From sequence record OZ035743.1: DNA of 64,000 nucleotides; one strand, written 5' to 3'. The stretch comes from Phapecoctavirus DIJ07P1. Shown here in pieces: positions 9,925-62,941 of this stretch. How positions within the stretch are numbered: position 1 is the stretch's first letter; every line of letters begins with the position of its first letter. Position numbers and translations under genes: made by a program. A model generated the notes under the pieces. The model was given only the letters and a program-made list of their open reading frames with translations. It made no database searches and had not been told where the DNA came from.

Positions 9925-9933
9925 TAGTCCTCC

Positions 9934-10365
9934 TTAGTTGTTAGCGAACTCAATAGTGAGGTCCACTTTACCATCATCAGAAATAACCATGTTTTTGGTA
10001 TTTTTAAAGATGATATCTACTTTACCTTCACTTACACGACAGAATGCAACACCATCTGCAACTTTATCAATATAATATTTGTAAGAAAGAATACCCACTT
10101 TACTACGACCAGCACCTTTTGTGAAAGAAGGGCTTACATCGAAACGGAAACCTTTAGAAGAAACAACACGGTAAGAACGTCCAGTTGGGATATGTTCAAT
10201 AACAGAGACATTGTTCTCAACAACTTTTACAGCAAACTCTTCAGGATGATCCTCAACAATCATGTGCGGAATGGCAAATGCCAACGCTTGTTTGTGTTTA
10301 ATAACACCAGCACCCAGAGCACCAGCAGCTTTAACTTTTGCATTCAGATCGATTGTCATACGCAT
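9934..10365 (-). CDS. Hypothetical protein
   Basis: 143-aa ORF between methyltransferase and primase-helicase. Confidence 0.6.
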   Translation of the reverse strand: MRMTIDLNAKVKAAGALGAGVIKHKQALAFAIPHMIVEDHPEEFAVKVVENNVSVIEHIPTGRSYRVVSSKGFRFDVSPSFTKGAGRSKVGILSYKYYIDKVADGVAFCRVSEGKVDIIFKNTKNMVISDDGKVDLTIEFANN

Positions 10366-10440
10366 TTTTACTTCTCCTCTTGTTTGGTTGATGAGACAAG
10401 TATAAGTCCCTTCCGCAAAGTTGTCAACAGGTATTTTTAA

Positions 10441-10459
10441 TAAAAGGGCCGAAGCCCTT
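10441..10459 (-). terminator. Terminator after primase-helicase
   Basis: gggcttcggccc hairpin followed by TTTTATT on minus strand. Confidence 0.6.
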
Positions 10460-12236
10460 AATAGTTGCTATCCGTAGGCAAATTAGCAGGATTGTTGAAA
10501 TACTGCTCTTTGTCATGCAGAGTTGCAGTTCTAATATCATAGTAAAACTGCCCTGCTGGACCAGTCTCTGAGAACTCACGGTTTTTTAGGATAAAGCAAT
10601 GAGTCGTATTTCGTTCTACAGGGTCTTCAGCGGCTTTATCTCGTTCCAAAGCCAAGGTAATACCAGCACCTTTAGCCAAGAAACTACTACCCATTGCATC
10701 GTCCTCTGTTAAGTGTTCATTGCCACCATTAGCCGATTTCTTAACGTGTGAGATGACGATAATAGTTATAGCATACTCTTTCATGATGCGCTTCAACCAT
10801 GTTGCTAACTCTTCCTGGGCTTGAACATCCATACCAGAAAGCAAATCAGAATAAGGGTCGATAACAAGAATTGTTACTCCAAAATAGATGATCATCTCCA
10901 AAACTTTTTCTTTGATAGACTCCACATCTGCTCCACGATCATCACACACATAAAAACGTGGTGATCCATCTTCTCTTTCGTAAAAATCTAGAATTTTTTC
11001 TTTATTCTCTTCCAGGATTTGAAATTTCTCTTCCGGTGTTTTCCTATGTAGAGGAATGTGCAGGAAAGAGGACAACAGGTTACGAGAATATTTCTTATAG
11101 GTTGCTTCCAATGACAGAATACCGAGGGTATGTTCTGGGTGTGCAACGATAATATGTTTGGTGATCTCGTTCACCATCAAAGTTTTACCGATACTGGTCT
11201 TTGCCAGGATAACTGTAATCTCTTCCTCTACTAAACCACCACCCAGCATATTTGCAGCAACACGCATAAAAGGAGGCAAGGTAATCATCTTGGATTCCAA
11301 GCATTCTAATGCAGCTTCATACAAGACATTAGAAGCATAAACACCTGCTGGGGTGTATAGACGAGCACTCCAAAAAGCTTTTACGAAATCTTTTGCACGA
11401 CCTTCTTCCAGATACTGATTGGCATCCTTAAGATCCATCTGCATACGGTAGACTTTGTTACGAGGCAGCACCTTAACAATATTTTCAAATGCCTCATTAC
11501 CCGCTTTGTCATTATCCATGCAAACAATAATCTTCTTAAATTTTTCAAAGAAAGGATATTGTGCCTGAACTTGTTTATACATACTGGTTTCACCAGTTGT
11601 GCCACTAACTACTGCTGGAAGTTCATATTTGTTGTCCAAGTTTTCAGACAGCATCTGATAAGCTGCCAGAGCATCGTGTTCACCACCTGTAATTACAACA
11701 GTATGAGAACGGTCTGCAAAACGAATTTGTCCAAAAAGATCTACATCTTTACCTACTTGACCAATAGGTTTACTGAAATCTTTAGGATGAATACGACGCT
11801 TAAAACCAACCAATTCTTTACCGATAGTAGTCGGATATAAACAACTTTCTACTACCATCTGATCCCCTTCCTGACGGTATTCATAACGAACACCATAGAA
11901 AGATGAAACTTTTTCTTTAATACCTCGATAACCACGTGGGTTGGTTGATGTTTCTTGAACAATTTTACGATGAATCTGTTTATTAAATTCCGAACCCACA
12001 ATCTCCTCCTCTTCTTCTAAAACTTCACCATTTTCTCGTAACCATTCTACGCTAGGAATAGTGTATTCACACGCAAAGCACTTAGCACCTTTATGCTCTC
12101 CATTAGAATCTAATCCATAAACCATCAGGTTATTACGAGAGCGATCCTTGCCATTTTTCATGCAGCGCGGACAACCTGTATGCCCTTCCTTGCTAAGATC
12201 AACATCAAATCCATATTTAGTTATAATGTGCGACAC
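10458..12236 (-). CDS. Primase-helicase (T7 gp4-like: zinc ribbon, TOPRIM, DnaB-like helicase)
   Basis: 592 aa; N-terminal CPRC...CFAC zinc ribbon; central VVITGGEHDALAAYQ; C-terminal Walker A AKTSIGKT. Confidence 0.85.
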   Translation of the reverse strand: MSHIITKYGFDVDLSKEGHTGCPRCMKNGKDRSRNNLMVYGLDSNGEHKGAKCFACEYTIPSVEWLRENGEVLEEEEEIVGSEFNKQIHRKIVQETSTNPRGYRGIKEKVSSFYGVRYEYRQEGDQMVVESCLYPTTIGKELVGFKRRIHPKDFSKPIGQVGKDVDLFGQIRFADRSHTVVITGGEHDALAAYQMLSENLDNKYELPAVVSGTTGETSMYKQVQAQYPFFEKFKKIIVCMDNDKAGNEAFENIVKVLPRNKVYRMQMDLKDANQYLEEGRAKDFVKAFWSARLYTPAGVYASNVLYEAALECLESKMITLPPFMRVAANMLGGGLVEEEITVILAKTSIGKTLMVNEITKHIIVAHPEHTLGILSLEATYKKYSRNLLSSFLHIPLHRKTPEEKFQILEENKEKILDFYEREDGSPRFYVCDDRGADVESIKEKVLEMIIYFGVTILVIDPYSDLLSGMDVQAQEELATWLKRIMKEYAITIIVISHVKKSANGGNEHLTEDDAMGSSFLAKGAGITLALERDKAAEDPVERNTTHCFILKNREFSETGPAGQFYYDIRTATLHDKEQYFNNPANLPTDSNY

Positions 12237-12527: not shown

Positions 12528-13471
12528 TATAGCTCCTCAAATAAAAGTCTACGACGCTCATTCAACACATCAATGTGATAATGAGTCCTGACATACTTAG
12601 CTAATGCTAATCCTTTCTCCATGCAAACATTAGGAGCACTTAATAAGTATTCCGTAATATCTTTCCACTCGGAAGGTGTTTCAGCAAAGAATAACAAATC
12701 TTTAAACTCTTGTGTATGATAATTCTCACGAGGAGAACAGATCAAAGGTAAACCCTTAGCACCTGCCTCAAGAATTTTAAGATTGCTTTTTGCATTATTA
12801 AACACGTTATCAATCAATGGCGCAAGACTGATTTGATGACCATCGTAAGATTCCATGTAGTTGGCATATGGTCTTACACCTTCATAAACACAAGTTGGTG
12901 CGACATTTTCTCTGATTACAGACCATTCACGACTACTTAAAACTTCAGAATCCCTACGAAAACCACATATTGTAAGATCTTTACCAAAATCAGGCAAGAT
13001 AGCCAAATCTTGTTTATGTGTTTCACTTCCAGCCCAGACTAATGGAGTTTTGGAGTAGCGATCACGGGTCAACACAAATTGACCTTCATCGTAAGGAAGT
13101 CCATTAGGGATTATGTGCACATTATCATTGTATTGTGAAAGTTCAACTTGCAAGGCAGGTGTCGTAGTTGTAACAAGGTCACTGTGCTCTAAAAACCATT
13201 TTAAATGTTCACGAATACCTGATTCAAAAATACCTTCTAACATGTGTCCTTTTGGAATAACTAAAGAGTCATCCAAATCCATAACCATTTTAAAGCCTAG
13301 GTTTTTAAGGGCTAAAAAGCCCTCTTTACCTTTTGTTGGCACTCCGTTAAAAACGAAAACGTTGTGTTTAGGTTGTGAAGAGAACTGCCTTGAGTAAGGC
13401 AGCACTACCCTATGGAAATCGCAGACACTATAATTGATTCCGTTACGATTGTCAAGAATTATTTGTCCCAT
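12527..13471 (-). CDS. Glycosyltransferase, GT-B-like (paralogue 1)
   Basis: 314 aa; C-terminal KSNLKILEAGAKGLPLICS resembles GT1 motif; paralogous to next gene. Confidence 0.6.
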   Translation of the reverse strand: MGQIILDNRNGINYSVCDFHRVVLPYSRQFSSQPKHNVFVFNGVPTKGKEGFLALKNLGFKMVMDLDDSLVIPKGHMLEGIFESGIREHLKWFLEHSDLVTTTTPALQVELSQYNDNVHIIPNGLPYDEGQFVLTRDRYSKTPLVWAGSETHKQDLAILPDFGKDLTICGFRRDSEVLSSREWSVIRENVAPTCVYEGVRPYANYMESYDGHQISLAPLIDNVFNNAKSNLKILEAGAKGLPLICSPRENYHTQEFKDLLFFAETPSEWKDITEYLLSAPNVCMEKGLALAKYVRTHYHIDVLNERRRLLFEEL

Positions 13472-13478
13472 ACTTCAC

Positions 13479-14426
13479 CTACAAACTTTCAATAACCTGG
13501 CGTCGCAATTCGTTTGCATCTGCTAGATTATAGTGTGTTCGAACATGTTCCGCTAAGAACAAGCCACGATCTTCCCGATAGTTTGGATTGCGAAGAAGCT
13601 TAACAATTTCGTAATGCCATTCTGCTTTGTTCTCTGCGTAAGCAACAGCACGAGCATCTACAGGGTTAAAATAAGGTAATACCTTAGAACAAACAATCGG
13701 AATACCCTTTGCTCCAGCTTCCAGGATTTTGAGATTACTTTTACAATTATTAAAATCATTATCTACCAAAGGAGCTATAGCAATAGCATGACTTTCGTAA
13801 ACACTCATGTAATTATCTAAATCTTTTACAGCAGCTTTATATTTAGCGTTTGGTAAATTTCTGCGAATCTTAATCCACTCTTGTCCCGTGATGCTCTGTG
13901 ATGCTTCATATCCCGCAATAGTAAGAAGTTCATCATCGAAAGTATTAGAGACTAGTCGTAAGTCGGGTTCGTGACTAGCACCGCCAGCCCATACAACAGG
14001 GGTACCGGATGAACGATCATTTGACAAAGTGAATTGTCCACTATCAAAAGGAAGTGCATTTCGGATCACAACAACATTCCTATTTAAGTGACGGATCTTA
14101 TATGCCAAGTATTCCGTAGTCACAATAACCACATCAGCAAGCTTAACCATAGCCACAATAGCATGAGTGTTTGACTCGTATAAACTTGCCAAATAATGCT
14201 CTGGATTAAGTTGGTAAAAATCATCTAAGTCTACAACAATCTTAACACCTTGACGTTTCAAAGATAAAACGTATTCTGCACCTTTAGAGTGGATACGGTT
14301 AAACACAACAACATCTTTCTTAGGTTGAATATTATTGTTGTTAAATGGCATAACAATACGATGATAGTCACAACCGCTGTGAGGTTTTGCATCAATTTTT
14401 AGTTTAGACCATTTTTTATTTGACAT
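13479..14426 (-). CDS. Glycosyltransferase, GT-B-like (paralogue 2)
   Basis: 315 aa; KSNLKILEAGAKGIPIVCS; shares VVDLDD / ILEAGAKG blocks with 12527..13471. Confidence 0.6.
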   Translation of the reverse strand: MSNKKWSKLKIDAKPHSGCDYHRIVMPFNNNNIQPKKDVVVFNRIHSKGAEYVLSLKRQGVKIVVDLDDFYQLNPEHYLASLYESNTHAIVAMVKLADVVIVTTEYLAYKIRHLNRNVVVIRNALPFDSGQFTLSNDRSSGTPVVWAGGASHEPDLRLVSNTFDDELLTIAGYEASQSITGQEWIKIRRNLPNAKYKAAVKDLDNYMSVYESHAIAIAPLVDNDFNNCKSNLKILEAGAKGIPIVCSKVLPYFNPVDARAVAYAENKAEWHYEIVKLLRNPNYREDRGLFLAEHVRTHYNLADANELRRQVIESL

Positions 14427-15099
14427 GTGCTAGTGCCTCCTCATAGGAAATTCGGATTTTCCCATTTTTAATATCCTCTAAAGATGCTTTATATTCTTCC
14501 CAGTTAATCCCAATAGCAGCTTCTTTCTCTTCTTTTGTCAGATTAGCAAAAGGCATAGGATTGTTTCCAAAAACATCGTCTGGGTGGATATAAGCCATGA
14601 TACGAAGTGGACAAGGTGTTGCCTGAATACCATGATTCAAACCAGCAGCTTTCAAACGGTGTCCCCATTCGGCATCTTCAAAACCATAACCGTGAGTGTA
14701 AGGGCGGAAATAACCCATCTTCTCAACAACGGCACGAGAATACATTGCAAATTGACACATTGCAAGTTCCCAGAGAATAACTTCTCCTTTGCTTCCAACA
14801 ACTTTATCTTTGAAGTACTCCGGCATACCAAAAAAATCCCATCCTCCAGAAACAGCTTGATCTACAAAGTATGTTTCCCATCCTTCCATGACTGGGTAGC
14901 AATCATCATCAAAAATAAACCAATAATCATAACCTTCTTCATAAAACTGGTGCATAAGTTCATTCCTGGCGTAAGCTACACCTTTACGATCTGGATCGTT
15001 GAATACTCGAAAATCTGCATGTGGATCTGTTACAAGATAGTCTTTAAGTGGACGGACACCTACAGTGATAACACCCACTCCGATTTTAATATTTTCCAT
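14416..15099 (-). CDS. Glycosyltransferase, GT-A fold (DxD)
   Basis: 227 aa; FIFDDDCYP DxD motif and YGFEDAEWG block. Confidence 0.6.
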   Translation of the reverse strand: MENIKIGVGVITVGVRPLKDYLVTDPHADFRVFNDPDRKGVAYARNELMHQFYEEGYDYWFIFDDDCYPVMEGWETYFVDQAVSGGWDFFGMPEYFKDKVVGSKGEVILWELAMCQFAMYSRAVVEKMGYFRPYTHGYGFEDAEWGHRLKAAGLNHGIQATPCPLRIMAYIHPDDVFGNNPMPFANLTKEEKEAAIGINWEEYKASLEDIKNGKIRISYEEALAHVK

Positions 15100-15107
15100 T
15101 TTCTCTC

Positions 15108-15671
15108 CTAGATAGTTTTACTGTGATCGTGACAGTGTAATAAATGATGTATAGACCGTTGAGGATTTGTTTGACCTAATCTGTAAATGTGAAACAGATA
15201 CATTCCCCGCATCAATCCTAACCTCTTTCCTTTTTCATGTAAAGTGCGAGAGAAAATTAGGTCGAATTGGATAGATTTTTCTTCGAAAGGAATTTCATTC
15301 CACAATGATTTTCTAAAAAGCAAAAAGAAACCTGCCAGAGGTGTTCCGAAAGGAACTTCTTCAACACTCACTTTATGATATTCTCTTGCAATCTTAGCAT
15401 ATTCTATATGGTTTAGAATATCTGGATCATCGTTAATTTGGTTAGAGAAAAGCTGATAACCACTACCTAACCTGTTACAAGTTGCACCTATTACATCAAA
15501 AGGCGGGTTTGACATAACAAGCTCTTCAAGCATAGATGGTTGATCAGGCAGGAGGAACATTGTATCGGTATCTCTTAAGCACACCCAACTATCATCTGGA
15601 AGAACGGCAATAGCTTCATTGATAGCCTTGCCGATATTTCCTGTCAGATAGGGAGTAATATAATAAATCAT
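15108..15671 (-). CDS. Putative GT-A-like glycosyltransferase
   Basis: 187 aa; VCLRDTDTMF DxD-like motif. Confidence 0.45.
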   Translation of the reverse strand: MIYYITPYLTGNIGKAINEAIAVLPDDSWVCLRDTDTMFLLPDQPSMLEELVMSNPPFDVIGATCNRLGSGYQLFSNQINDDPDILNHIEYAKIAREYHKVSVEEVPFGTPLAGFFLLFRKSLWNEIPFEEKSIQFDLIFSRTLHEKGKRLGLMRGMYLFHIYRLGQTNPQRSIHHLLHCHDHSKTI

Positions 15672-15687
15672 TCTCCCCTCCGTTATA

Positions 15688-15879
15688 TTAACTGTCAGCT
15701 ACAATCCCACGTTTAATCATTTCTTGTTGGATTTGGATGACACGATCTCGTGCTTCCATATATTCTTTAAAAGATTCTTGGAGATGGTCACGAGCTACAT
15801 CCCGTAGTTTAATCAGCTTGTCGTTTGTCACTTCTTGAAGAGAGATCTCGCCAGTTTCATTGGTCCCAAGCGTTTTCAT
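15688..15879 (-). CDS. Hypothetical protein
   Basis: 63-aa ORF. Confidence 0.5.
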   Translation of the reverse strand: MKTLGTNETGEISLQEVTNDKLIKLRDVARDHLQESFKEYMEARDRVIQIQQEMIKRGIVADS

Positions 15880-16894: not shown

Positions 16895-16955
16895 ATTTTG
16901 CCTCCTTTTTAAGTTAACGAACTTCTAGTATAACACGATAGAGGCTTTATTGCAA

Positions 16956-18110: not shown

Positions 18111-18901
18111 TTTTTAGCACCTACTTTAACAACCCACTCTCCGAACTCTTCAGATAAGAGTTTGTCATAAAGCTCTGAATCTGTCAAGTCTAAATCTTTA
18201 ATGCCAATAAAACCAACATTATCATAAGCATTTGCCAGTTCTTTCAGGAAGCCAAACTTCTCATTACCAACGCCAACCATGAACCAATAAATAGGTTTAT
18301 TCTTATTCTCTTCAATAAGACGACGAACAGCACTAGGATCACCATTCTCACCATCCGTCTGGAAGAATACAACACCAGGGGTAACGTCAGCACCTGGTTC
18401 AGACACAGCTACAACCTTTTCACGCTCTACAGATACTGTTTCAGTTTTACCAAGCAGACGATTAAAGAAGCCTTTCTTTGGAGCCTCCTCTTGTACCACT
18501 TGTTTAGTGGTAATATATTTGGTAACAGTGCCAAAATACTCATCGTAGATATCTGCCATTACAGGGGCGTAATTTGTTCCACCTCCGATACGAACATTGC
18601 GCATACATTTACCAACATAGTCATCGTAAACGTCTGCTGTTGCTGGAGTAAGCTCTTGGGAACTCGTATTGAAGGCCCACATATCAATTTGTTGATTATC
18701 GTCGAACAGCATACCAAAAGGAAGCAGTTTACCTACAAAATCACTCACTACCCCACTAGAATATAGACCATGCATACTACCAGAAATATCTAGAGCACAT
18801 GCTACACGAAGAACAATCTTACCTTCATTCAGGTTCTTATTCTTTTTCAGAGAGAAAGCAAGGTTTTCTTGACGTTTTTTCAGGCTGATTTTCTCGGACA
18901 T
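18107..18901 (-). CDS. vWA-domain protein with TerD-like N-terminus (TerY/TerF-like)
   Basis: 264 aa; N-terminal MSEKISLKK...SLKK; MIDAS motif DISGSM (DxSxS). Confidence 0.75.
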   Translation of the reverse strand: MSEKISLKKRQENLAFSLKKNKNLNEGKIVLRVACALDISGSMHGLYSSGVVSDFVGKLLPFGMLFDDNQQIDMWAFNTSSQELTPATADVYDDYVGKCMRNVRIGGGTNYAPVMADIYDEYFGTVTKYITTKQVVQEEAPKKGFFNRLLGKTETVSVEREKVVAVSEPGADVTPGVVFFQTDGENGDPSAVRRLIEENKNKPIYWFMVGVGNEKFGFLKELANAYDNVGFIGIKDLDLTDSELYDKLLSEEFGEWVVKVGAKK

Positions 18902-18902
18902 A

Positions 18903-19181
18903 TTATTTCTCCTTCTTAAGTGTAATATTGGTAACTTCTAAATCTACTTCCACCATATTTGTATCTGGCGGGATGCAATGAGTATAGCCTCGTTGTGCTA
19001 GTGATCCATTAATACAGATCGCACTGTTTGTGGAATTTTTAATGAACACCAAGTTACGGTAGGTATCCAACCCTGCGTCTTCATAGGCATCATAATACAT
19101 GAATGTGGCCCCTATGCCAAGATCTTCGAAAGCAATAGGTAAATCCTGACTTTTTTCTTCTTGAATATTGAATCTAAACAC
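18903..19181 (-). CDS. Small protein, paralogue B (immediately upstream of vWA gene)
   Basis: Paralogous to 17612..17881; start set at GTG after GGAGG RBS (ORF-track ATG at 19247 would overlap upstream gene by 74 nt). Confidence 0.55.
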   Translation of the reverse strand: MFRFNIQEEKSQDLPIAFEDLGIGATFMYYDAYEDAGLDTYRNLVFIKNSTNSAICINGSLAQRGYTHCIPPDTNMVEVDLEVTNITLKKEK

Positions 19182-52326: not shown

Positions 52327-52611
52327 ATGCGTAAAGCTAACACCGTGCTAATGTTTTCCCTGATTAATAATGCCGCTTACTTGTCCAACATGACGCAGGA
52401 GGGTAACACATTAACGGCAACATTCACCAATAAGCTTGACCGAGTGATCATAATCTCACTGAAAACAGTTAGTAAAGGCTTTTACTCGTTAGCTTATCAT
52501 TGTATCACTGACACCGACGAGACAAGCCAGGACTATAGCGCCCCTTTCCCTGAATCAATGGCACGGGAGATCATCGCCGCCGTTGTAAATGATGGTTTGT
52601 TTACTGCATAA
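52327..52611 (+). CDS. Hypothetical protein
   Basis: Start set at MRKANT after GAGGATG RBS. Confidence 0.55.
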   Translation: MRKANTVLMFSLINNAAYLSNMTQEGNTLTATFTNKLDRVIIISLKTVSKGFYSLAYHCITDTDETSQDYSAPFPESMAREIIAAVVNDGLFTA

Positions 52612-52627
52612 AATAATTCAGAAAAGG

Positions 52628-52686
52628 CTTGCAATAATTTTCAGACCGTGTATATTTAATTCATAGGGCGGCGGGAATAGTTCCCT
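52628..52686 (+). promoter_or_regulatory. Promoter-leader cassette 16 (degenerate)
   Basis: TTGCAA...TATATT...catagGGCGGCGGGAATAGTTCCC. Confidence 0.55.
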
Positions 52687-52708
52687 AAGCAAACGAGAGG
52701 ATTACACG

Positions 52709-52828
52709 ATGAGCAAGTATACAGTAGAATACACGGTAGAAAATCCGGCAGTATCCGAAGGTAAAAAGATGACATTTGCCATCAGTATAATCGCTTTCGT
52801 TATCACTATCTTATCAATCATCTTATAA
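52709..52828 (+). CDS. 39-aa hydrophobic peptide
   Basis: MSKYTVEYTVENPAVSEGKKMTFAISIIAFVITILSIIL read manually; RBS GAGAGGA. Confidence 0.4.
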   Translation: MSKYTVEYTVENPAVSEGKKMTFAISIIAFVITILSIIL

Positions 52829-52966
52829 GGTGCGTACTATGAAAACAACAGACATTATCAAAGAGATCGCCCTTGCCGCTGACGTTGAGATCGAGGAAGT
52901 GATCGCGCTCAACCTTACAGAAAACGATCTACTCAATCTATGAAGCGTTATAATTGACAACAAAAC

Positions 52967-52993
52967 AAGGGCGCACCAAGCGCCCTTTCTTTT
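52967..52993 (+). terminator. Rho-independent terminator (copy 2, near-identical to 51723..51749)
   Basis: agggcgcaccaagcgccct followed by ttcttttt. Confidence 0.75.
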
Positions 52994-52994
52994 T

Positions 52995-54495
52995 GCCCGA
53001 ACAATGTTGATAGCTTTCGCCTATGAAAAACCGACACAGAACAAAACTGAATAAATCGCGGTATCGAGCTAATCAACCAGCAAACGAATAACCATACCTC
53101 CCAGGGTTACAGGCTGTTAGAGAGCCATTTAGAGCGGTTAAAATCGATCAACAACCAACAACAAACCATCAAAAACACCCTTTTACCTCCTTTCTAGTGC
53201 AATGATAACCATTATCATCTACCCATGATTATCTATGCAATATAAGCGCATAATTATAATGTTGATAATAGTTCGCAACAACTAACCAACAAACAACATA
53301 AAACAATAAGCAAACTAATCATAATCAAAGGAATAATAGCAAGATGATTGATAACGACAAACAATCAAACCATGATGAATACTAAGCAAGATAACGATAA
53401 CACGACAAAACAACCAACTAACGAACAATAACAAACGAAACCATTAAAATAATAACTATTAGCAAAATAGTGCATGAATGAAATCATTACAAAACGAATC
53501 ATTCACAGAGTCATCATTAGCACGCTATGCCGGACACATAGCGAGCTAATAATAAGCCAACTACACCCCAACAATCATAACCATCGGTGACGGTTATTTC
53601 TTGTTACTGCGTAGCTTGCAATAATTGCAAGCGTAATGACGCTTACACTTATTGCGCTGGCTTATTATTAGCATTATATGTAATTACCAAGATCATAACA
53701 TTAGCGCAATAACAATAGTCATTGTGATAATTACAAGATGAGATCATTAGCAAGATGAATAATTGCACGTAGCAACATGAGCGAATAGCGACAGGTTGCA
53801 TAGTGTGCACATAGTGTATAAACATACAAGAAAATAAAGGCTAATCTTTTGGGGGCGAATACTATCGCGTAGCGATATGTTGAGCACCTTCTCTTAAACG
53901 TAAATAAAATCAGAAAATTCTTGATTTATTTTGGCTTTTATGTTAATAAACGTTTAAATAATAATCATTCTCATATAAATAATAGTCTGCTTGTCATGAG
54001 CGGCATTAGTTGACATTGTTCCGTCATATGATGAAGTTGCCAAGCCATTGATAAATAAGTGTTTGTGTGATTTATAATCAGGTGGCCCACCTTGTCGCTA
54101 TGTTGGCATGAGCCTTGCATAAGTCATTGAATACGAATGATAATTATTCTCATTCGCATGATATTTGGGAATTGTCGCTGCGTGGACCTGACGGCCCGAA
54201 AATTCGCGTTAAGCACTTCTTACGTATGCGCCATGATTTTTGCCATATGATATTGATTCTATTAGATATTCTTGCCATTATTGCCATGAAACAGGGTGTG
54301 TCGAAATAATTGCTCCCCGTAGATATTTTGGGTTACTTTTTATACAAGAGTGGGGTGTCAAAAATAATCGGTATATATGGGATAATTGATAGGAATCCCC
54401 TATGATAATTCGATTGTAATTCCCTAAGATTGATCGTATGATGTTGGTGATTGATGATTGCCATGAAAGATGGCTAACGATGAGAGGAGATTGTC
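52995..54495. other. A/C-rich, strand-asymmetric non-coding region (~1.5 kb)
   Basis: No convincing ORF; plus strand dominated by A and C with recurring CAAGATGA / GATAACGA / ATCATTAGC words. Confidence 0.6.
53957..54157. promoter_or_regulatory. Fur-box-like palindromes (second locus)
   Basis: aataataatcattctcat (53957..53974) and cgaatgataattattctcattcg (54135..54157); same motif family as 45741..45846. Confidence 0.45.
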
Positions 54496-54840
54496 ATGCA
54501 AGAGAGTAAAAATGTTCCGTTGAGTAGTTTACGTCTAATGAAGTTTTACAAAGCTTGGCTTGCTGGTGAGGTAGAAGGTCACACAACGAGTGGTTTGTGC
54601 ATATGTTTGATTAAGTATGTAGAGGGAACATATCCTGATAAACTGTTACCTCGTCTACAACAGGAGATGAAATCACAGTTTATTAGTGCAGGATTGGATT
54701 ACAATTTCCCGTTTAATGAAGGTGGTTATGAAGAATACACCTTCGAACATAAAAAACATATTTGCCATAAAAACAAACATCGTATACAATGGGTGTTAGA
54801 TAGAATTCAGGATTATGAAGGAGAGAAAAATGACAAATAG
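54496..54840 (+). CDS. Paralogue family X member 1
   Basis: 114 aa; shares FYKAWL, TSGLC.CL, AGLDYN.PFN, R.QWV.DRI blocks with 54830..55198 and 60255..60569. Confidence 0.65.
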   Translation: MQESKNVPLSSLRLMKFYKAWLAGEVEGHTTSGLCICLIKYVEGTYPDKLLPRLQQEMKSQFISAGLDYNFPFNEGGYEEYTFEHKKHICHKNKHRIQWVLDRIQDYEGEKNDK

Positions 54841-55198
54841 TATTCCGTTGAGCAGTGCAACATTGCTTCGCTTCTACAAAGCATGGATTGCCAACTATCC
54901 TGCAATGAATCGCACAACGAGTGGCTTATGTGGTTGTCTGGTAGATTATGTAGATGATTTTGTTGGTGAGACAACTAGAGAAGAAGATAGAAGATGGCGG
55001 GATAGTTTGTTAGACCGTTTGAAATATGAAATGAGGAAACAATTTACATGTGCAGGGCTGGACTACAATCTTCCGTTTAATGCAGATTGCATGGATTACC
55101 TTTCAGAGTGTATAAACTTGGCGTGTCATACCAACACGTTACGTCTTCAATGGGTGAAAGACAGAATTGAAGATGCAAATAATGCTTGCATTGAATAA
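54830..55198 (+). CDS. Paralogue family X member 2
   Basis: Start set at MTNSIPLSS after GGAGAG RBS. Confidence 0.65.
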   Translation: MTNSIPLSSATLLRFYKAWIANYPAMNRTTSGLCGCLVDYVDDFVGETTREEDRRWRDSLLDRLKYEMRKQFTCAGLDYNLPFNADCMDYLSECINLACHTNTLRLQWVKDRIEDANNACIE

Positions 55199-55247
55199 AA
55201 ATGTCTGTATGATGGATGACATAACAGATAGCCAATGAGGAGATGAA

Positions 55248-55469
55248 ATGAAGAATTTGAAAACTGTCACAATGTTCTTGACTGATCCTACACGTGTGCA
55301 AGCACTGGCTAAAGCCAGCCGTGTAGCTGTAGAATTCCAAAACTTTAAGCCGTCCGTTGTGACAGGCAGTGAAACGTGTGTTATCGATTTCATTAACGAA
55401 TACTTCCGAGGGAATCCGGTTGGTCGTTACTTCATTAAAAACTTGAAGGATGCGGAGCAGGTACAATGA
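55248..55469 (+). CDS. Hypothetical small protein
   Basis: 73-aa ORF, RBS GAGGAG. Confidence 0.55.
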   Translation: MKNLKTVTMFLTDPTRVQALAKASRVAVEFQNFKPSVVTGSETCVIDFINEYFRGNPVGRYFIKNLKDAEQVQ

Positions 55470-55705
55470 TCCTTCCAGTAGATAATGAGATAGCTATGAA
55501 TGTTCTGGATACAGAATACTTCTACAATCACTACTCTGAGACAGAGTGGATGAACACGCAAACTCTAAAAGAGAAGACGCAAGCTTTGATTAAGTGTGAT
55601 CGCTACTTGCAACGTGCCGAGGAAGATAATATAACATTAGCATCTCGCGCACGACGCGTTTCCATTTTCAATAAAATGTTAGCATTATGGGGAGGTAGAA
55701 AATGA
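55466..55705 (+). CDS. Hypothetical small protein
   Basis: 79-aa ORF. Confidence 0.55.
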   Translation: MILPVDNEIAMNVLDTEYFYNHYSETEWMNTQTLKEKTQALIKCDRYLQRAEEDNITLASRARRVSIFNKMLALWGGRK

Positions 55706-56163
55706 GACAACTATCTATACTAGAAGCGCATGTGCAATGTGTTGTAGATTATGTCAAAGAACACTCAAGTTTGTTGAATGTAACCTGTGCAGTGCAAAAC
55801 GATGTAGGTGTTGTCTGTGTGCAACATATCTTATCTGAAACTCGTTATGAAGTATTTCGTGCCACGTTGTTTGGATGTGATCGAGTGCATGTAAACTTCC
55901 TGGACTCCAATTATCGTTATGCTTTAGAAGATATTGATAAGTATTTGCCTTGCTCTCCGACAGGATATGTAATGGTAACAGCAAACGAAGTAACACCGAG
56001 CAACAGTGAACAGGAAGCTTTGTTACGGAAGAAAATACGCCAACTGCAAGTGTTGAATGAACTGAAAGAAGAGATTGAAAAAGAACTGAAAGAAGATTTT
56101 GGTATGCTTCCAAAAGACGCTTTGAAATGGTATGATGAACTAGGAGGAGAAAGTTATGAATAA
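55702..56163 (+). CDS. Hypothetical protein
   Basis: 153-aa ORF, RBS GGGAGG. Confidence 0.6.
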   Translation: MRQLSILEAHVQCVVDYVKEHSSLLNVTCAVQNDVGVVCVQHILSETRYEVFRATLFGCDRVHVNFLDSNYRYALEDIDKYLPCSPTGYVMVTANEVTPSNSEQEALLRKKIRQLQVLNELKEEIEKELKEDFGMLPKDALKWYDELGGESYE

Positions 56164-56350
56164 AGGAACTACTGTATATTTAGTGACTAAGAACACCCCA
56201 GGTTGGAGCCAATGCAGCACTGTTCCTTACAAGATCTGTGCAACATTAGAACTAGCACAACGTGCAGAAGCAGAAGTGAATACCATGCAATACAGCTATG
56301 GTGAAATCATTCCTTTTACTCTTGAACAAGAAGGAGCACATCGTGTTTAA
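56156..56350 (+). CDS. Hypothetical small protein
   Basis: 64-aa ORF. Confidence 0.55.
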   Translation: MNKGTTVYLVTKNTPGWSQCSTVPYKICATLELAQRAEAEVNTMQYSYGEIIPFTLEQEGAHRV

Positions 56351-56798
56351 AGTAGGGTTTACTTATAAATTCAAAAGCGTTGCTGACCAAGGAGATATGG
56401 CAACACATGACAAAGCAAATATTGCTGTTTGCCAAGTGATTGGAAACGAAGTTTTCAAAGTTATGAATACAGATGATAAGTATGGTCATGTTCTTGAGTT
56501 TTATATCAACGGTACCCTCTATACAGCAGGTGTTACCCCAGGGTTTAATTCGTATACTTATTTGATTGATAACGAAGAATTTAAATATTTTGAAGAAGTA
56601 AAGGAGGAAACAATGGGTAAAGCAGAACCACAATGGCATGTTGTGATTGTAGGATCAGAGTGTGTAGATGTTTGTTCTAGTTTTGAAAAAGCTTCTGAAG
56701 TCGCTACAAAAGCTAAGAAGGATTATCCGTCGAAGACGGTTGAGATTTACGCTCGTGTTGCAGTAGCAAACGCCACAATCACTATTGATAAGGAGTAA
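56343..56798 (+). CDS. MFK-family tandem paralogue 1
   Basis: Start set at GTG after AAGGAG RBS, giving (M)FKVGFTYKFKS N-terminus matching paralogues; C-terminal TVEIYARV. Confidence 0.6.
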   Translation: MFKVGFTYKFKSVADQGDMATHDKANIAVCQVIGNEVFKVMNTDDKYGHVLEFYINGTLYTAGVTPGFNSYTYLIDNEEFKYFEEVKEETMGKAEPQWHVVIVGSECVDVCSSFEKASEVATKAKKDYPSKTVEIYARVAVANATITIDKE

Positions 56799-56803
56799 AA
56801 CCA

Positions 56804-57262
56804 ATGTTCAAAGAAGGTCATGTCTACCGTTTCCAGGATGAGGATTATATGCGACTATATTCTACCTTTGATAACAGTATTGCGGCTATCATTGGAGAGA
56901 ATTTTTTCGAGGTGTTGAGCACTGATGCAAATGGTAATATCTTGTCAATGGTTGTAATAGGTATGAGAGATGGTATTATCACTGCTGGTGATGGGGATCG
57001 TTACATAATCAATTCTGCTCATATAGATTATTTTGTTGACGGTGGTGTTCGTGGTGGTCGTGGAAAACCCCAAGAAGAACCTGTTGATACAACAAAAGAA
57101 GAGTGGTATGTTGTAATGACTGATGACACCTGTATTTCTGGATTTGAAAGTTATGAAGAAGCTTTGAAAGAAGCAGCAGAGCATAAAATGGCTAATCCTA
57201 CAGAAGAGGTTGAAGTTTATAAACGTATGGTTGTTGCTACCATCGGCGTATCTTTTGTTTAA
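56804..57262 (+). CDS. MFK-family tandem paralogue 2
   Basis: MFKEGHVYRFQ... EVEVYKRMVV. Confidence 0.65.
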   Translation: MFKEGHVYRFQDEDYMRLYSTFDNSIAAIIGENFFEVLSTDANGNILSMVVIGMRDGIITAGDGDRYIINSAHIDYFVDGGVRGGRGKPQEEPVDTTKEEWYVVMTDDTCISGFESYEEALKEAAEHKMANPTEEVEVYKRMVVATIGVSFV

Positions 57263-57274
57263 AAGGGGAATGTT

Positions 57275-58060
57275 ATGTTTAAAGTAGGTTTTGTTTATAA
57301 TTTCAAATCGGAAGATACCAAAAAGAATTTTGGTAAAGCCAGTATTCGTAACGCTTTCTTTGTAGGTTGCATTCAAGATAGCAAGTTTAAAGTTTTAGAT
57401 GTTGATTTTCTAGGTTCTGTGTCAAAGGTGAAGGTATTAGACACAAATAAGATCATCGAAGGTAGTTCTGGGCTTTTTCCTGAAGGCTATAAGCTTGTAA
57501 GTTGTATAGATTATAGTCGTTTTGAAGAACATCCTCCTGAAGATTATGAGGATTCTCCTACAGGAGGTTGTGTCTTTGTAGAAGGTGGTGTCTATAAGTT
57601 TGCAAGTGAACAAGATCGTAAGCTTTTCGCCAATTATATTGACGGCGGACAAACGACAAACAATGTAAACCGAAAAATTTCCGATCTTATTGGCGATGAT
57701 CCTTTCGTGATCACAAAGATGGTTGGACAAGATGTAACAGCAATCCGTAGGCTTGTATGTAATACAAATCATGTAGCAGGTGAAGGTTGGTTCAAAGAAG
57801 CTTGTGCACTGCTAATCAAAAGCGATAACCCTTACTTTAAAAATATTAAAGATGCTGTTGAGCCTAAACAAGAGGAACCCGCAGCGAATTTTAAACACTA
57901 TGCTATTGTTAAAGGTATGAATGTCCAACTGGTGTCACATTCTTACGAAGAGATCGCCACAGAAGCAAAAAAGATGAAGGAAGAATACCCAATTTCTACT
58001 GTTGAGATCTATGAGCGTATTGGTGTTGTTAGTATTGAGCCTACTGCGGTAATAAAATAA
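57275..58060 (+). CDS. MFK-family tandem paralogue 3 (duplicated N-terminal module)
   Basis: 261 aa; MFKVGFVYNFKS at N-terminus and internal GGVYKFASEQDRKLF repeat; C-terminal TVEIYERIGV. Confidence 0.65.
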   Translation: MFKVGFVYNFKSEDTKKNFGKASIRNAFFVGCIQDSKFKVLDVDFLGSVSKVKVLDTNKIIEGSSGLFPEGYKLVSCIDYSRFEEHPPEDYEDSPTGGCVFVEGGVYKFASEQDRKLFANYIDGGQTTNNVNRKISDLIGDDPFVITKMVGQDVTAIRRLVCNTNHVAGEGWFKEACALLIKSDNPYFKNIKDAVEPKQEEPAANFKHYAIVKGMNVQLVSHSYEEIATEAKKMKEEYPISTVEIYERIGVVSIEPTAVIK

Positions 58061-58069
58061 GGAGCTATT

Positions 58070-58507
58070 ATGTTCAAAGCTAATGCTGTTTACTGTTTCA
58101 AAAGTAAAGCTGCCTGTGAAGCTTTCTCTGTGATCTCGGATGAAAATTTCAAAATGGCAGCTTTGATTGAAGGGTCTTGTTTCCGCGTCGAAGATGTTAG
58201 TGAATCAGGGTCTGTTTGCTCATTGACTTTATTGGACAGCGGGGATATTATTGAAGCTGGACAGTATCCTTTCAGAAGTTGGGAGATATTGTTAGCTCGC
58301 GGAGAGCGTAACTTTTTTATGTGTGTGTCTGCGGGGGAAGTTGTGAAAGAAACTAATGATGTTTCTGTTTACAATTCTGAATTTATAAGTTATAGTGAGT
58401 ATCAACATCTGGAAGGCATTGTTGGTCACTTGTTATCTCTGATTGACGTTGAATGTGACCTGCCTGAATCATTGAAAGAAGAATTGAAAGCATTAGATCT
58501 GTTATAA
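58070..58507 (+). CDS. MFK-family tandem paralogue 4 (divergent)
   Basis: MFKANAVYCFKSKAA... Confidence 0.6.
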   Translation: MFKANAVYCFKSKAACEAFSVISDENFKMAALIEGSCFRVEDVSESGSVCSLTLLDSGDIIEAGQYPFRSWEILLARGERNFFMCVSAGEVVKETNDVSVYNSEFISYSEYQHLEGIVGHLLSLIDVECDLPESLKEELKALDLL

Positions 58508-58534
58508 TGTTTCGCACAACGAAAGGAGAATAAG

Positions 58535-58834
58535 ATGAATCTGACCGAACAGTTACGCCGTATTGCAAAAGAAGCTTCCTTCAACTTCCCTGTTGAAGAA
58601 GTGATCGAGACATGTTTTGCTGAAGCACGAGCGGGAAACTCTTCAAGAAATTTCACGCCATCTGATTTTGGTCTGGATAATTCCCCTACCCACCCAGGGG
58701 CGATCTACAATCAGGTGAAGTGGATGGATGAAGCAGTAGCAATTCTTCGTGAGCGTGGGCTTATTGTTTATAAAGAAATGGATTTGAACGGGGCATACGA
58801 GTGGATCACTATTGATTGGTCGGAGGTGAAATAA
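58535..58834 (+). CDS. Hypothetical protein
   Basis: 99-aa ORF, RBS AAGGAG. Confidence 0.6.
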   Translation: MNLTEQLRRIAKEASFNFPVEEVIETCFAEARAGNSSRNFTPSDFGLDNSPTHPGAIYNQVKWMDEAVAILRERGLIVYKEMDLNGAYEWITIDWSEVK

Positions 58835-59043
58835 TGGTTACTATCACATTGACAGTTACACAAGAGCAAGCAGAAGAATTGCGTGATGCTGTGGCATACA
58901 TGGGACGTTCTTATTATATGCCTCATAAGTCTCAAGATGTTTTTGCTACAGCCGTTGAGAAAGCTCTAAACAAATATCGAGAAACTCATGCCGTTCCTAA
59001 AGTATCAGCAGAAGAGTTTGGCACTTGGCACGAAGTTCACTAA
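58834..59043 (+). CDS. Hypothetical small protein
   Basis: Start set at MVTITLTV after GGAGGTG RBS. Confidence 0.5.
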   Translation: MVTITLTVTQEQAEELRDAVAYMGRSYYMPHKSQDVFATAVEKALNKYRETHAVPKVSAEEFGTWHEVH

Positions 59044-59053
59044 GGAGGTTTCG

Positions 59054-59287
59054 ATGAAAGGTAACAAGATGAAAGTTAATCAGGTACCGAGCGCATACAC
59101 TCTGTGGCTTGCGCGAGCGTTAAACCAGACGATCAAAAATCCTAAGAAGCCAATGAAGAGTGGGAAGAAGTTTATGTCTAAGGGCAAAACAACCTTTGGC
59201 TTCACTCGTATGTCTGTTAAGATGAAAAGGCTGGGGTATAAGCCAAACTACGCTCGTTACCCTTCCGAATACAACTGGTTTGACTAA
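59054..59287 (+). CDS. Hypothetical basic protein
   Basis: Start set at MKGNKMKV after AAGGAGG RBS. Confidence 0.55.
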   Translation: MKGNKMKVNQVPSAYTLWLARALNQTIKNPKKPMKSGKKFMSKGKTTFGFTRMSVKMKRLGYKPNYARYPSEYNWFD

Positions 59288-59302
59288 AGAGGAGAACAAA
59301 AC

Positions 59303-59521
59303 ATGAAAACATCTATTCGCGTGAAACATGATCCGAACAGCAGTTACCCATACGCGTATGTTGAACGTCATGAAGGAGACTATTACACCATAAAACGTAA
59401 AGTCCCAACTGATACAGGGTTTAACTTTGATGTTATTGCGCTGGATGATCAAGGTGTTGATAATCTGGTGAATGCATTACTCGCATTGAAGGAAGTACGA
59501 TATGAAAATCAGACTAATTGA
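59303..59521 (+). CDS. Hypothetical small protein
   Basis: 72-aa ORF, RBS GAGGAG. Confidence 0.55.
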   Translation: MKTSIRVKHDPNSSYPYAYVERHEGDYYTIKRKVPTDTGFNFDVIALDDQGVDNLVNALLALKEVRYENQTN

Positions 59522-59693
59522 AAAGGGTGATACCATCTTCGAAACCCGTAAAGGTGAAATCACAGAGATTCCAGAAGAAAGATCAACAATCCTTGTCGAT
59601 GGTGTTTTGAAATATTGCTGTAGTGTCTATAAATCTTACGAGAAGGATCAGTATGGCGATCCAGAAATCTGGTTTGTAGGAGATGTGTATTAA
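59502..59693 (+). CDS. Hypothetical small protein
   Basis: 63-aa ORF. Confidence 0.5.
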   Translation: MKIRLIEKGDTIFETRKGEITEIPEERSTILVDGVLKYCCSVYKSYEKDQYGDPEIWFVGDVY

Positions 59694-59702
59694 GGGGGTA
59701 AA

Positions 59703-60062
59703 ATGAGCGGAGAATTTCGTAAAGTAAAAGATATCTCCTTGTTTGAAGGAGATGTTGTTAGGATCAACGGAAGATTGTTAAAATTTCACCAGTTGATGCA
59801 TCCAAGCACAACACATAACGTGATGGTGGTCTTCCAGGATGCTTTTGCTGCCAGCGATTACACTCCGTATTCAGCAGAAACTGAAGTATATTTTGAAGGA
59901 TATGTTGATCGACCACTTGCAAAAGAGATGTGGGACAAGTATCATATAAACATTACAGATTCACGGGGTGTCTTCTGGAACTACCCTAGTGAAGGTAAGG
60001 TGGCTTTCGATTCTTGTGATCGTTTAGCCGAAGAGATTGCCGAATGGCGTGATACTCACTAA
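59703..60062 (+). CDS. Hypothetical protein
   Basis: 119-aa ORF, RBS AAGGGGG. Confidence 0.55.
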   Translation: MSGEFRKVKDISLFEGDVVRINGRLLKFHQLMHPSTTHNVMVVFQDAFAASDYTPYSAETEVYFEGYVDRPLAKEMWDKYHINITDSRGVFWNYPSEGKVAFDSCDRLAEEIAEWRDTH

Positions 60063-60077
60063 AACAGGAGAAAGATT

Positions 60078-60254
60078 ATGGCTACTTTTCAACAACTGAA
60101 AGATGTTTCACGTTTAGTAAGAAAAATCCGAGAAGCAGACGCTGCTGTGCGGAATGCATTAACGCCAGCAGAGCGTGAAGATCTTGAAGAGGAGGTGAAA
60201 ACAGCCGAGAATGCTTTTGCTGTGTATCTTTCAACACTGCATACGGGAGGCTAA
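60078..60254 (+). CDS. Hypothetical small protein (58 aa, below ORF-track cutoff)
   Basis: MATFQQLKDVSRLVRKIREADAAVRNALTPAEREDLEEEVKTAENAFAVYLSTLHTGG read manually; RBS AGGAGAAAG. Confidence 0.5.
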   Translation: MATFQQLKDVSRLVRKIREADAAVRNALTPAEREDLEEEVKTAENAFAVYLSTLHTGG

Positions 60255-60569
60255 ATGTCAGAGGAACTTAAAGAATTTTATCAAGCCTATCATAATTGGC
60301 TGTTAGCTGGTGCTCCAGATAATAATCCTTTCTGGCATGATAAAGGTTTGTGCAGTTGCCTCTATCTTTGGTCTGGTGGCTATGATGATCTAAATTATGA
60401 AATGCAAATGCAATTCCGCGAAGCAGGGTTGTCTGAAGAATACCCGTTTGATGACGGAGACTGGTTTAAATATGATTTTGCACAAAGAAACGGGCTATTG
60501 CATTTGAATGCTGCCCGTATAAAATGGGTAAAGGATCATGCTACACAGGAGGATGTGCAATGCCAATAG
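60255..60569 (+). CDS. Paralogue family X member 3
   Basis: FYQAYHNWLLAG...KGLCSCLYLW...AGLSEEYPFDDG...RIKWVKDHA. Confidence 0.6.
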   Translation: MSEELKEFYQAYHNWLLAGAPDNNPFWHDKGLCSCLYLWSGGYDDLNYEMQMQFREAGLSEEYPFDDGDWFKYDFAQRNGLLHLNAARIKWVKDHATQEDVQCQ

Positions 60570-60760
60570 TGTTTAGTTTCTTGGTAATTGTTATGGTTGT
60601 TCTTTTCGCGGCATGGCTTTGGGATTTTGACCCAGGAGCAGCGCAGCAAAGAGCTACAGACTGGAAAGAACAATGTATTGTGCTCAAACATGAACGAAAT
60701 GCGGAGAAATTTCTTGACCTGGAGTGTGATCGCCTTGTAAGATACAAGCAAGATAAATAA
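60560..60760 (+). CDS. Small membrane-anchored protein
   Basis: Start set at MPIVFSFLVIVMVVLFAAWLW. Confidence 0.5.
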   Translation: MPIVFSFLVIVMVVLFAAWLWDFDPGAAQQRATDWKEQCIVLKHERNAEKFLDLECDRLVRYKQDK

Positions 60761-60774
60761 CCTTGAGGTGCAAA

Positions 60775-60963
60775 ATGGTAATTGAGATTAAACTTGAATA
60801 TGCTGGGGCTGTTGCTTTGATCGCACAAATGCTTGGAGCAAAGATTGAAGAAGTGTATATCAATGCCTGGAGCGTAGAGATTGATGTTCCTATGGACAAC
60901 ATTGCTAATCGCTTGCTGGTAGCAGAGTGTGAACGCACCAACATAATCTACAAAGGGGCATAA
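60775..60963 (+). CDS. Hypothetical small protein
   Basis: Start set at MVIEIKLEY after GAGGTG RBS. Confidence 0.5.
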   Translation: MVIEIKLEYAGAVALIAQMLGAKIEEVYINAWSVEIDVPMDNIANRLLVAECERTNIIYKGA

Positions 60964-60964
60964 T

Positions 60965-61186
60965 ATGAAAATTAGAGTTTGTGATGTATTGGGTTATGTT
61001 GGTTTTGAGAATGTTCAGATTCCTTTTGTTGTTGAAGCACATCTTGTTAGTGATGATATGACAACATTCTTTGTTACGATAGAAGAAATGTCCAAAGTTG
61101 AGGGATGGGAGTGGTTTGAAGAAGATGTTTGGGAAGGTTGTGATTACGTATTTTTCTCTGACGAAGTGAATGTTCTTTCGGAGTAG
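60965..61186 (+). CDS. Hypothetical small acidic protein
   Basis: 73-aa ORF. Confidence 0.55.
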   Translation: MKIRVCDVLGYVGFENVQIPFVVEAHLVSDDMTTFFVTIEEMSKVEGWEWFEEDVWEGCDYVFFSDEVNVLSE

Positions 61187-61899: not shown

Positions 61900-62148
61900 A
61901 TGCTGAATGTTTTTACTACTGATCGTGTAGGAACACCGATTACCGAAGAAGAACGTGCAGAGATTACAAAAGAGTTGGAAGATCTTTACCGTGTTTTCTC
62001 TGATGAAGAAAGCATTAAAAAAGATGCTGAAAAGATGACAGATCTGTTGGGTTTTACTTGGTCCCCAGAATGGACCGCTGTTGCTCTTAGTGCAGATATT
62101 TGGGGGTATGAAGAAACCCTACGCACTGGGGTAGTGGCAGCTTGGTAA
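61900..62148 (+). CDS. Hypothetical small acidic protein
   Basis: 82-aa ORF. Confidence 0.55.
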   Translation: MLNVFTTDRVGTPITEEERAEITKELEDLYRVFSDEESIKKDAEKMTDLLGFTWSPEWTAVALSADIWGYEETLRTGVVAAW

Positions 62149-62220
62149 TATGATAGAGACTATCATTTTCATTGTTCTGGCTATTATTTTGGGTTTCTTA
62201 ATATATGAATAGAGGTATTT

Positions 62221-62676: not shown

Positions 62677-62941
62677 CAATATGAAAGAAACATTGCCAGC
62701 AGCATATCGTTTGAATGATGAACGTATTTGGGAGTGGACCGACGTTTCTTGTTTTTACCCTGAAATAGTTCAATATTGGCGAGCGAAAGGATGTGTTGTA
62801 GTTATCAACCCTTGTGGACCAGTAGATGAAGATTGCTTGTATCTCGATGGGAAGTGGCACAGTTATTGTCGCTGGCCTTTTGAGTGGATGTGTAAAGAAG
62901 ATCTCCCAGAGGGTTGGGAGTATCCAATTAATGACTCTTAA
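62654..62941 (+). CDS. Hypothetical Cys/Trp-rich protein
   Basis: 95-aa ORF; start uncertain (62654 or 62681). Confidence 0.5.
   Translation: MTPWFRFNNMKETLPAAYRLNDERIWEWTDVSCFYPEIVQYWRAKGCVVVINPCGPVDEDCLYLDGKWHSYCRWPFEWMCKEDLPEGWEYPINDS

What the first reader, a model, noticed from the sequence alone, without database searches (positions are those of the whole stretch)
54496..60569. Dispersed three-member paralogue family X with conserved Cys and aromatic motifs
ORFs at 54496, 54830 and 60255 share FYKAWL/FYQAYHNWL, TSGLC.CL/KGLCSCL, AGLDYN.PFN and R.QWV.DRI/RIKWVKDH blocks. The third copy lies 5 kb from the first two, pointing to duplication and divergence of an unknown effector.
Basis: seen in the sequence. 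Interest (0 to 1): 0.45.

Follow-up and report, generated by a model that had tools for sequence, protein, structure and literature searches.

The report
Multi-copy orphan early-gene family in coliphage
The three small genes are true relatives, part of a 5–7-copy family of about 100-residue helical proteins found in the presumed early regions of many lytic phages of Proteobacteria; the predicted shape matches no solved structure, the function is unknown, and the family is dispensable in the one phage tested.

Summary
The ORFs at 54496, 54830 and 60255 are homologous (BLASTP E = 4e-33, 2e-15, 7e-11), have good ribosome-binding sites, and are the only members in the window.

The window is a phAPEC8-like Phapecoctavirus (E. 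coli myovirus). "Three members" is a window-edge artefact: phAPEC8 has seven copies and vB_EcoM_REC has six. This phage lost two copies in a ~2.5-kb deletion at ~62.92 kb, and two more should lie just past the window's end.

All copies belong to PHROG 2510 (function unknown). That is a large family: 1,024 cluster representatives at 50% identity. A motif scan found it far more often in viral contigs than in bacterial genomes. Thirteen of the top 150 hits are two-domain fusions.

AlphaFold gives a confident five-helix domain (pLDDT 94.7) with no match among solved structures. Y9, C33, P64, F65 and R88 are invariant. The second Cys of the "CxC" motif is not conserved.

W1 and W2 are tandem duplicates with an 11-nt overlap. 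W3 belongs to a different, older lineage.

In phage PTXU04, knockdown of each of its three tandem copies had no fitness cost on a lab host.

Best reading, with low-to-moderate confidence: dispensable, diversifying, host-directed early proteins involved in host takeover or counter-defence. The mechanism is unproven.

The parts
54496..54840 (+). W1: family member, 114 aa (= phAPEC8 gp18). First gene after a ~1.9-kb ORF-poor stretch.
   Evidence: ORF. AGGAG at 54485-54489, 6 nt before the ATG. phrog_2510 E = 3e-26. Family HMM E = 4e-29.
54830..55198 (+). W2: family member, 122 aa (= phAPEC8 gp19). Tandem sister of W1, with an 11-residue insertion in the helix 2-helix 3 loop.
   Evidence: AAGGAG at 54818-54823, 6 nt before the 54830 ATG; public records use this start. 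phrog_2510 E = 2e-25. 45% identical to W1, E = 4e-33. Sister to W1 in the NJ tree.
54830..54840 (+). 11-nt overlap between the W2 start codon and the W1 stop codon (TAG at 54838-54840); probable translational coupling.
   Evidence: Read directly from the sequence. The three tandem family genes of phage PTXU04 overlap by the same 11 nt.
60255..60569 (+). W3: family member, 104 aa (= phAPEC8 gp30). Belongs to a different deep lineage of the family.
   Evidence: GGGAGG at 60245-60250; the ATG abuts the upstream TAA. phrog_2510 E = 9e-29. AlphaFold model pLDDT 94.7, pTM 0.86, five helices. Nearest relatives are foreign.
62921..62927 (.). Deletion junction relative to REC (9189-11728) and phAPEC8 (13126-15865). 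In those phages the missing segment carries one (REC) or two (phAPEC8 gp41, gp44) further family copies.
   Evidence: blastn of the window against L007 and L006. HMM scans of L006 and L007.

Best explanation
W1, W2 and W3 are three of probably five copies in this phage (seven in phAPEC8) of a single-domain protein family, PHROG 2510. It is a compact five-helix domain of about 100 residues. Family members sit in blocks of small genes placed where early genes lie in several unrelated virulent-phage architectures. I read them as non-essential accessory proteins made early in infection that act on the host (host takeover or counter-defence). I propose that they bind a target through a conserved polar site formed by invariant Cys33, Arg88 and Tyr9 with Gln53, Asn85, Glu49, Glu76 and His83, while variable loops and copy-number expansion diversify specificity. 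W1 and W2 arose by tandem duplication and are probably translationally coupled. W3 is an older, separate lineage. What is shown: homology, copy number and its variation, phage distribution, fold confidence, lack of any solved relative, residue conservation, and dispensability of the PTXU04 copies. What is inferred: early expression, that the conserved polar residues form one site, host-directed action, and a binding rather than catalytic mode.
Against: No homologue has a demonstrated function, partner or ligand. Early timing rests on gene position only, and sigma-70-like promoter matches near W1 are not above shuffled expectation (35 found against 28.7 +/- 5.6). I could not inspect model coordinates, so clustering of the conserved polar residues into one pocket is not shown; some may be structural, such as helix caps or salt bridges. 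'Not Fit' may reflect redundancy among paralogues or false negatives, which the authors acknowledge, rather than a conditional role. No PADLOC, Pfam or NCBIfam hit and no fold match to any solved anti-defence protein. An invariant Cys is more typical of catalysis or metal binding than of simple protein-protein inhibition.
Confidence: 0.4

Rival explanations
1. The domain is a small enzyme that uses Cys33 as a nucleophile, or a Cys/His/Glu-bound metal, to modify a host protein, a nucleotide or a signalling molecule. The paralogues would differ in substrate.
For: C33 is invariant in 112 of 112 and 129 of 129 sequences and lies in the first turn of helix 2, preceded by invariant Gly-Leu, a position that could favour reactivity. 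R88 is invariant, and Q53, N85, E49, E76 and H83 are highly conserved. That degree of polar conservation at 27% mean identity is unusual for a pure binding scaffold.
Against: No fold or sequence relation to any known enzyme family. H83 (76%) and E76 (78%; Ala in W3) are not universal, so there is no fixed catalytic triad. About 100 residues with no recognisable cofactor motif. Many copies per genome are more typical of binders than of enzymes.
Confidence: 0.2
2. The proteins serve the phage itself, for example as small regulators of phage gene expression or replication that bind DNA, RNA or RNA polymerase, rather than targeting host defences.
Confidence: 0.12
3. The unit of function is a dimer. 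Overlapping tandem genes (W1/W2, PTXU04 gp85-87) and natural two-domain fusions would reflect an obligate homo- or heterodimer whose interface forms the active site, possibly bridging a metal or cluster through the single Cys of each subunit.
For: Thirteen of the top 150 homologues are head-to-tail fusions of two domains. Tandem genes overlap by 11 nt in two unrelated phages.
Against: The AlphaFold model of fusion P0003 has confident domains (pLDDT 88.7) but pTM 0.64, so the mutual orientation is undefined. Many phages carry a single copy. W3, gp51 and gp54 are solitary genes. This reading can hold together with either the binder or the enzyme model.
Confidence: 0.15

Closest known systems
PHROG 2510 (with weaker matches to PHROGs 6418 and 27059), catalogued phage protein families of unknown function
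   Same: All three window proteins and the four further phAPEC8 paralogues match it at E = 1e-25 to 1e-32 over the full domain. It is the same family.
   Different: The PHROG entry carries no function, structure or description of the multi-copy organisation. Its 219-position profile probably spans two-domain members, and the window proteins cover only positions ~5-113.
Small phage-encoded counter-defence proteins made early in infection, such as the nucleotide sponges Tad1, Tad2 and Acb2, anti-CRISPRs, Ocr and T4 Arn (general knowledge, not tested by experiment here)
   Same: Small size, presumed early-region location, restriction to phages, variable presence between close relatives, dispensability on a laboratory host, and a conserved polar site that could bind a ligand.
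   Different: No sequence or fold similarity to any solved member. No PADLOC hit. No demonstrated anti-defence activity. An invariant Cys is not a feature of the known sponges, to my knowledge.
Other tandem multi-copy small-gene families in the early regions of large virulent phages, such as the neighbouring phrog_3710/622 'goF-like' array at 56298-58507
   Same: Same gene block and strand, local tandem duplication, copy number differing between close relatives, unknown function.
   Different: Unrelated sequence. The family studied here has a far wider distribution across phage types and a higher count of invariant polar residues.

Membership tests
PHROG 2510 | Significant full-domain match to the family HMM | tested here: met
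   E = 3.1e-26 (W1), 2.4e-25 (W2), 8.9e-29 (W3). The other four phAPEC8 paralogues score 1e-26 to 1e-32.
T4 Arn ('anti-restriction nuclease', the label on CAM6581850.1 in the W2 cluster) | Sequence or fold similarity to the solved Arn structure | tested here: not met
Fic/Doc fold (considered because of the 'PFN' motif and the helical fold) | Core motif HxFx(D/E)GNGRxxR, with catalytic His and an anion-binding loop | tested here: not met
Structural zinc-binding or disulfide domain (CxC...CH) | Four conserved Cys/His ligands across the family | tested here: not met
   Only C33 is invariant. Position 35 is Cys in 17%, position 82 is Cys in 46%, H83 is 76%. 14 of 112 members have a single Cys, and there is no clear co-variation. 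W1 and W2 do carry all four (C33, C35, C82, H83), so a metal site in those two copies is not excluded.
Known anti-phage defence or counter-defence families | HMM match to a PADLOC model, or fold match to a solved anti-defence protein | tested here: not met
Any Pfam or NCBIfam family | Score above the curated cut-off | tested here: not met
   0 families for the three proteins. Across all 112 aligned members there were only single, sub-threshold chance hits.

The most novel reading that the evidence does not exclude
PHROG 2510 is a previously unrecognised fold class of phage host-manipulation proteins with a Cys-centred active or ligand-binding site. It would be either a new kind of small enzyme or a new sponge for a conserved host or immune molecule. 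Its expansion to seven divergent copies per genome would represent a repertoire for evading variable host defences.
Probability: 0.25. Interest if true: 0.7.

Novelty: new member of a known kind. Interest (0 to 1): 0.4.

Why it matters
If the host-directed reading is right, this family is a large and untouched source of phage-host interaction biology. It has more than 1,000 clusters at 50% identity and occurs in N4-like, T7-like, T1-like, rV5-like, phAPEC8-like and other phages. The domain folds with high confidence but matches no solved structure, and its invariant Cys and Arg give immediate mutational handles. Phapecoctaviruses are frequent phage-therapy and biocontrol isolates, so knowing what their variable early genes do bears on host range. 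As it stands, however, the finding is a well-documented orphan gene family and not a mechanism.

Tried and rejected
1. Pfam, NCBIfam and PADLOC scans of the three proteins, and Pfam on all 112 aligned members: nothing above noise. Longer homologues yielded only one fusion, to DUF551, itself uncharacterised.

2. PDB sequence searches with the 3-sequence profile, the 112-sequence profile and W2 alone: no meaningful hit.

4. The 'anti-restriction nuclease' label found on one cluster member is rejected as unsupported.

5. The zinc-finger or disulfide idea based on CxC...CH is rejected as a family feature.

7. The pseudo-dimer test using a natural two-domain fusion was inconclusive (pTM 0.64).

9. 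The upstream ORF-poor region was checked for repeats, Rfam families and tRNAs: nothing found. Promoter-like sites are not enriched over shuffles.

10. Literature searches by genus, PHROG id and locus tags found no functional study. Atd1, the anti-defence protein reported for Phapecoctavirus, is to my recollection a MazG-like enzyme and unrelated.

11. The neighbourhood of the single bacterial-genome hit (Roseococcus MAG) had no Pfam matches in 10 ORFs and is uninformative.
Full report
**What is there.** The window is a phAPEC8-like Phapecoctavirus, an E. coli myovirus of about 150 kb. Positions 54000-61000 match vB_EcoM_REC at 96.8% identity over 99% of the query, and match dozens of related records. 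W1 is 54496-54840 (114 aa), W2 is 54830-55198 (122 aa) and W3 is 60255-60569 (104 aa). Each has a Shine-Dalgarno sequence 4-6 nt before its ATG. The W2 ATG lies 11 nt inside the end of W1, and the W3 ATG abuts the stop codon of the preceding gene. Public records annotate all three as hypothetical proteins: phAPEC8 gp18, gp19 and gp30.

**Is the similarity real?** Yes. BLASTP gives E = 4e-33 (W1/W2, 45% identity), 2e-15 (W1/W3, 36%) and 7e-11 (W2/W3, 30%). HMMs built from the three sequences, and later from 112 homologues, pick out exactly these three among all six-frame ORFs of the window. The next best score is E = 0.3.

**The family is larger than three.** Scanning phAPEC8 with the family HMM finds seven members, all in one block of about 70 small + strand genes: gp18, gp19, gp30, gp41, gp44, gp51 and gp54. 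REC has six. Aligning the window to both phages shows a clean deletion at window ~62921-62927. It removes REC 9189-11728 and phAPEC8 13126-15865, the segment that carries the gp41 and gp44 copies. The window ends at the equivalent of phAPEC8 position 16944. The gp51-type and gp54-type copies would therefore lie about 760 and 2,070 nt past the end. This phage probably has five copies, and copy number varies from 5 to 7 among phages that are ~96-99% identical across this region. Some relatives also carry truncated 67-aa versions of the gp54-type gene.

**How the copies are related.** The seven phAPEC8 paralogues are 23-52% identical to one another. In a neighbour-joining tree of 178 domains, W1 and W2 are sisters, and gp41 and gp44 are sisters. 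That indicates two local duplications. W3 falls in another clade with homologues from other phages and is 46-50% identical to them, against 30-36% to W1 and W2. The tree rests on a 109-column alignment and has low resolution, but the identity figures agree with it. W3 is an older or separately acquired lineage.

**Family-wide picture.** All copies match PHROG 2510, function unknown, at E = 1e-25 to 1e-32. They match nothing in Pfam, NCBIfam or PADLOC. An exhaustive HMMER search of 1.84 billion cluster representatives finds 1,024 at E <= 1e-3 and 257 at E <= 1e-10. Most are single domains of 95-130 aa, and 13 of the top 150 are head-to-tail fusions of two domains.

tblastn and BFVD hits cover many phage types:
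- phAPEC8-like, Justusliebigvirus and rV5-like phages
- N4-like phages of Erwinia, Achromobacter, Delftia and Klebsiella
- T7-like Burkholderia phage JG068
- T1-like, Dhillonvirus, Rhizobium, Acinetobacter and Pseudomonas KPP10/PAK_P1-like phages
- Delftia phage PhiW-14

Every one is annotated as hypothetical.

Where the genome layout is interpretable, the gene lies where early genes are found in those phage types. In N4-like Ea9-2 it is gene 07, upstream of the RNA polymerase genes. In JG068 it is gene 5, upstream of the primase. In RG-2014 it is gene 13.

A 41-bit degenerate DNA motif, EMxxQFxxAGLx4PF, gave one genuine hit in 596 Gb of bacterial and archaeal genomes and 12 in the viral collection. 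The motif probably captures under half of the family, so this is an indication and not a census. Many database copies are labelled "Escherichia coli", but they sit on contigs of about 150 kb, the size of the phage genome.

**Experimental evidence.** Phage PTXU04 has three consecutive members (PTXU04_00085, 00086 and 00087), each overlapping the next by 11 nt, as W1 and W2 do. In the transcriptome-wide CRISPRi-ART knockdown screen of that phage on E. coli BL21, all three are classed "Not Fit". That means knockdown had no measurable cost to the phage. The authors' HHpred annotation was "unknown" (PMC11879866 source data). The authors note that the method has false negatives, and paralogue redundancy could also mask an effect.

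**Interpretation.** The evidence consists of presumed early-region position, phage restriction, variable copy number, tandem expansion, fusion variants and dispensability on a laboratory host. That combination is the profile of accessory host-directed genes involved in host takeover or counter-defence. This is my best explanation, at about 0.4 confidence. The specific mode, binding through a conserved Cys/Arg/Tyr-centred site, is less certain.

The main rival is catalysis (about 0.2), favoured by the absolute invariance of Cys33 and Arg88. An obligate-dimer architecture is suggested by the fusions and overlapping tandem genes. It is not confirmed, because the fusion model has pTM 0.64. A phage-internal regulatory role is less likely, given dispensability and copy-number variation.

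One database member is labelled "anti-restriction nuclease". That label has no support from sequence, fold or PHROG assignment.

**Novelty and score.** The genes are near-identical to hypothetical proteins deposited with phAPEC8, and the family is already catalogued as PHROG 2510. The finding is therefore a new member of a known, uncharacterised kind. The features worth noting are the family's size, its apparently unsolved fold, the invariant polar residues and the expansion to 5-7 copies. These make it a reasonable target for anti-defence or host-takeover screens. No mechanism is established, so interest is 0.4.

Noticed in passing
window 56298-58507 (+): A second tandem paralogue family lies between the copies: four ORFs (166, 152, 261 and 145 aa) that all begin MFK.G.VY.F. 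They match phrog_3710/622/5347 (unknown function), with weak links to 'goF mRNA metabolism modulator' PHROGs. The 261-aa ORF looks like a double-length member. phAPEC8 has fewer copies: window 56150-56802 and 57081-57869 have no counterpart there.
   Followed up: partly
window ~52600-54495: A ~1.9-kb stretch with no convincing ORF lies directly upstream of W1. From 54000 on it is ~97.5% identical to REC and phAPEC8. Many public records place their arbitrary start here. No Rfam family, tRNA or notable repeat was found, and promoter-like sites are not above shuffled expectation.
   Followed up: partly
window 62921-62927: A clean 2.5-2.7-kb deletion relative to REC and phAPEC8 removes about nine small genes, including two copies of the family. 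Other indels (window 59296-60058 and 61902-62211 are absent from phAPEC8) show that this small-gene block is an indel hotspot.
   Followed up: yes
L023 (PTXU04) 18186-19030; window 54830-54840: Tandem family genes overlap by exactly 11 nt in two unrelated phages (PTXU04 gp85/86/87 and W1/W2). This suggests a recurrent duplication junction or selection for translational coupling.
   Followed up: partly
protein cluster of W2 (P0184, CAM6581850.1): One database copy is labelled 'Anti-restriction nuclease [Escherichia coli]'. All others are 'hypothetical'. The label has no support from sequence, fold or PHROG evidence.
   Followed up: yes
protein clusters of W3 and of phAPEC8 gp54: Some members sit on a 299,278-bp contig, about twice the phage genome length, which suggests a concatemer or mis-assembly. 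The gp54-type cluster includes 67-aa truncated forms on many contigs (for example Klebsiella phage ZCKP1), which suggests decay of that copy in some lineages.
   Followed up: no
L008 4596-4946 (Roseococcus sp. MAG, contig of 296,681 bp): This is the only genuine family member found in the bacterial genome collection by the motif scan. It lies in an 8-kb stretch where none of 10 ORFs has a Pfam match. It may be a prophage or mobile island, but this is unresolved.
   Followed up: partly
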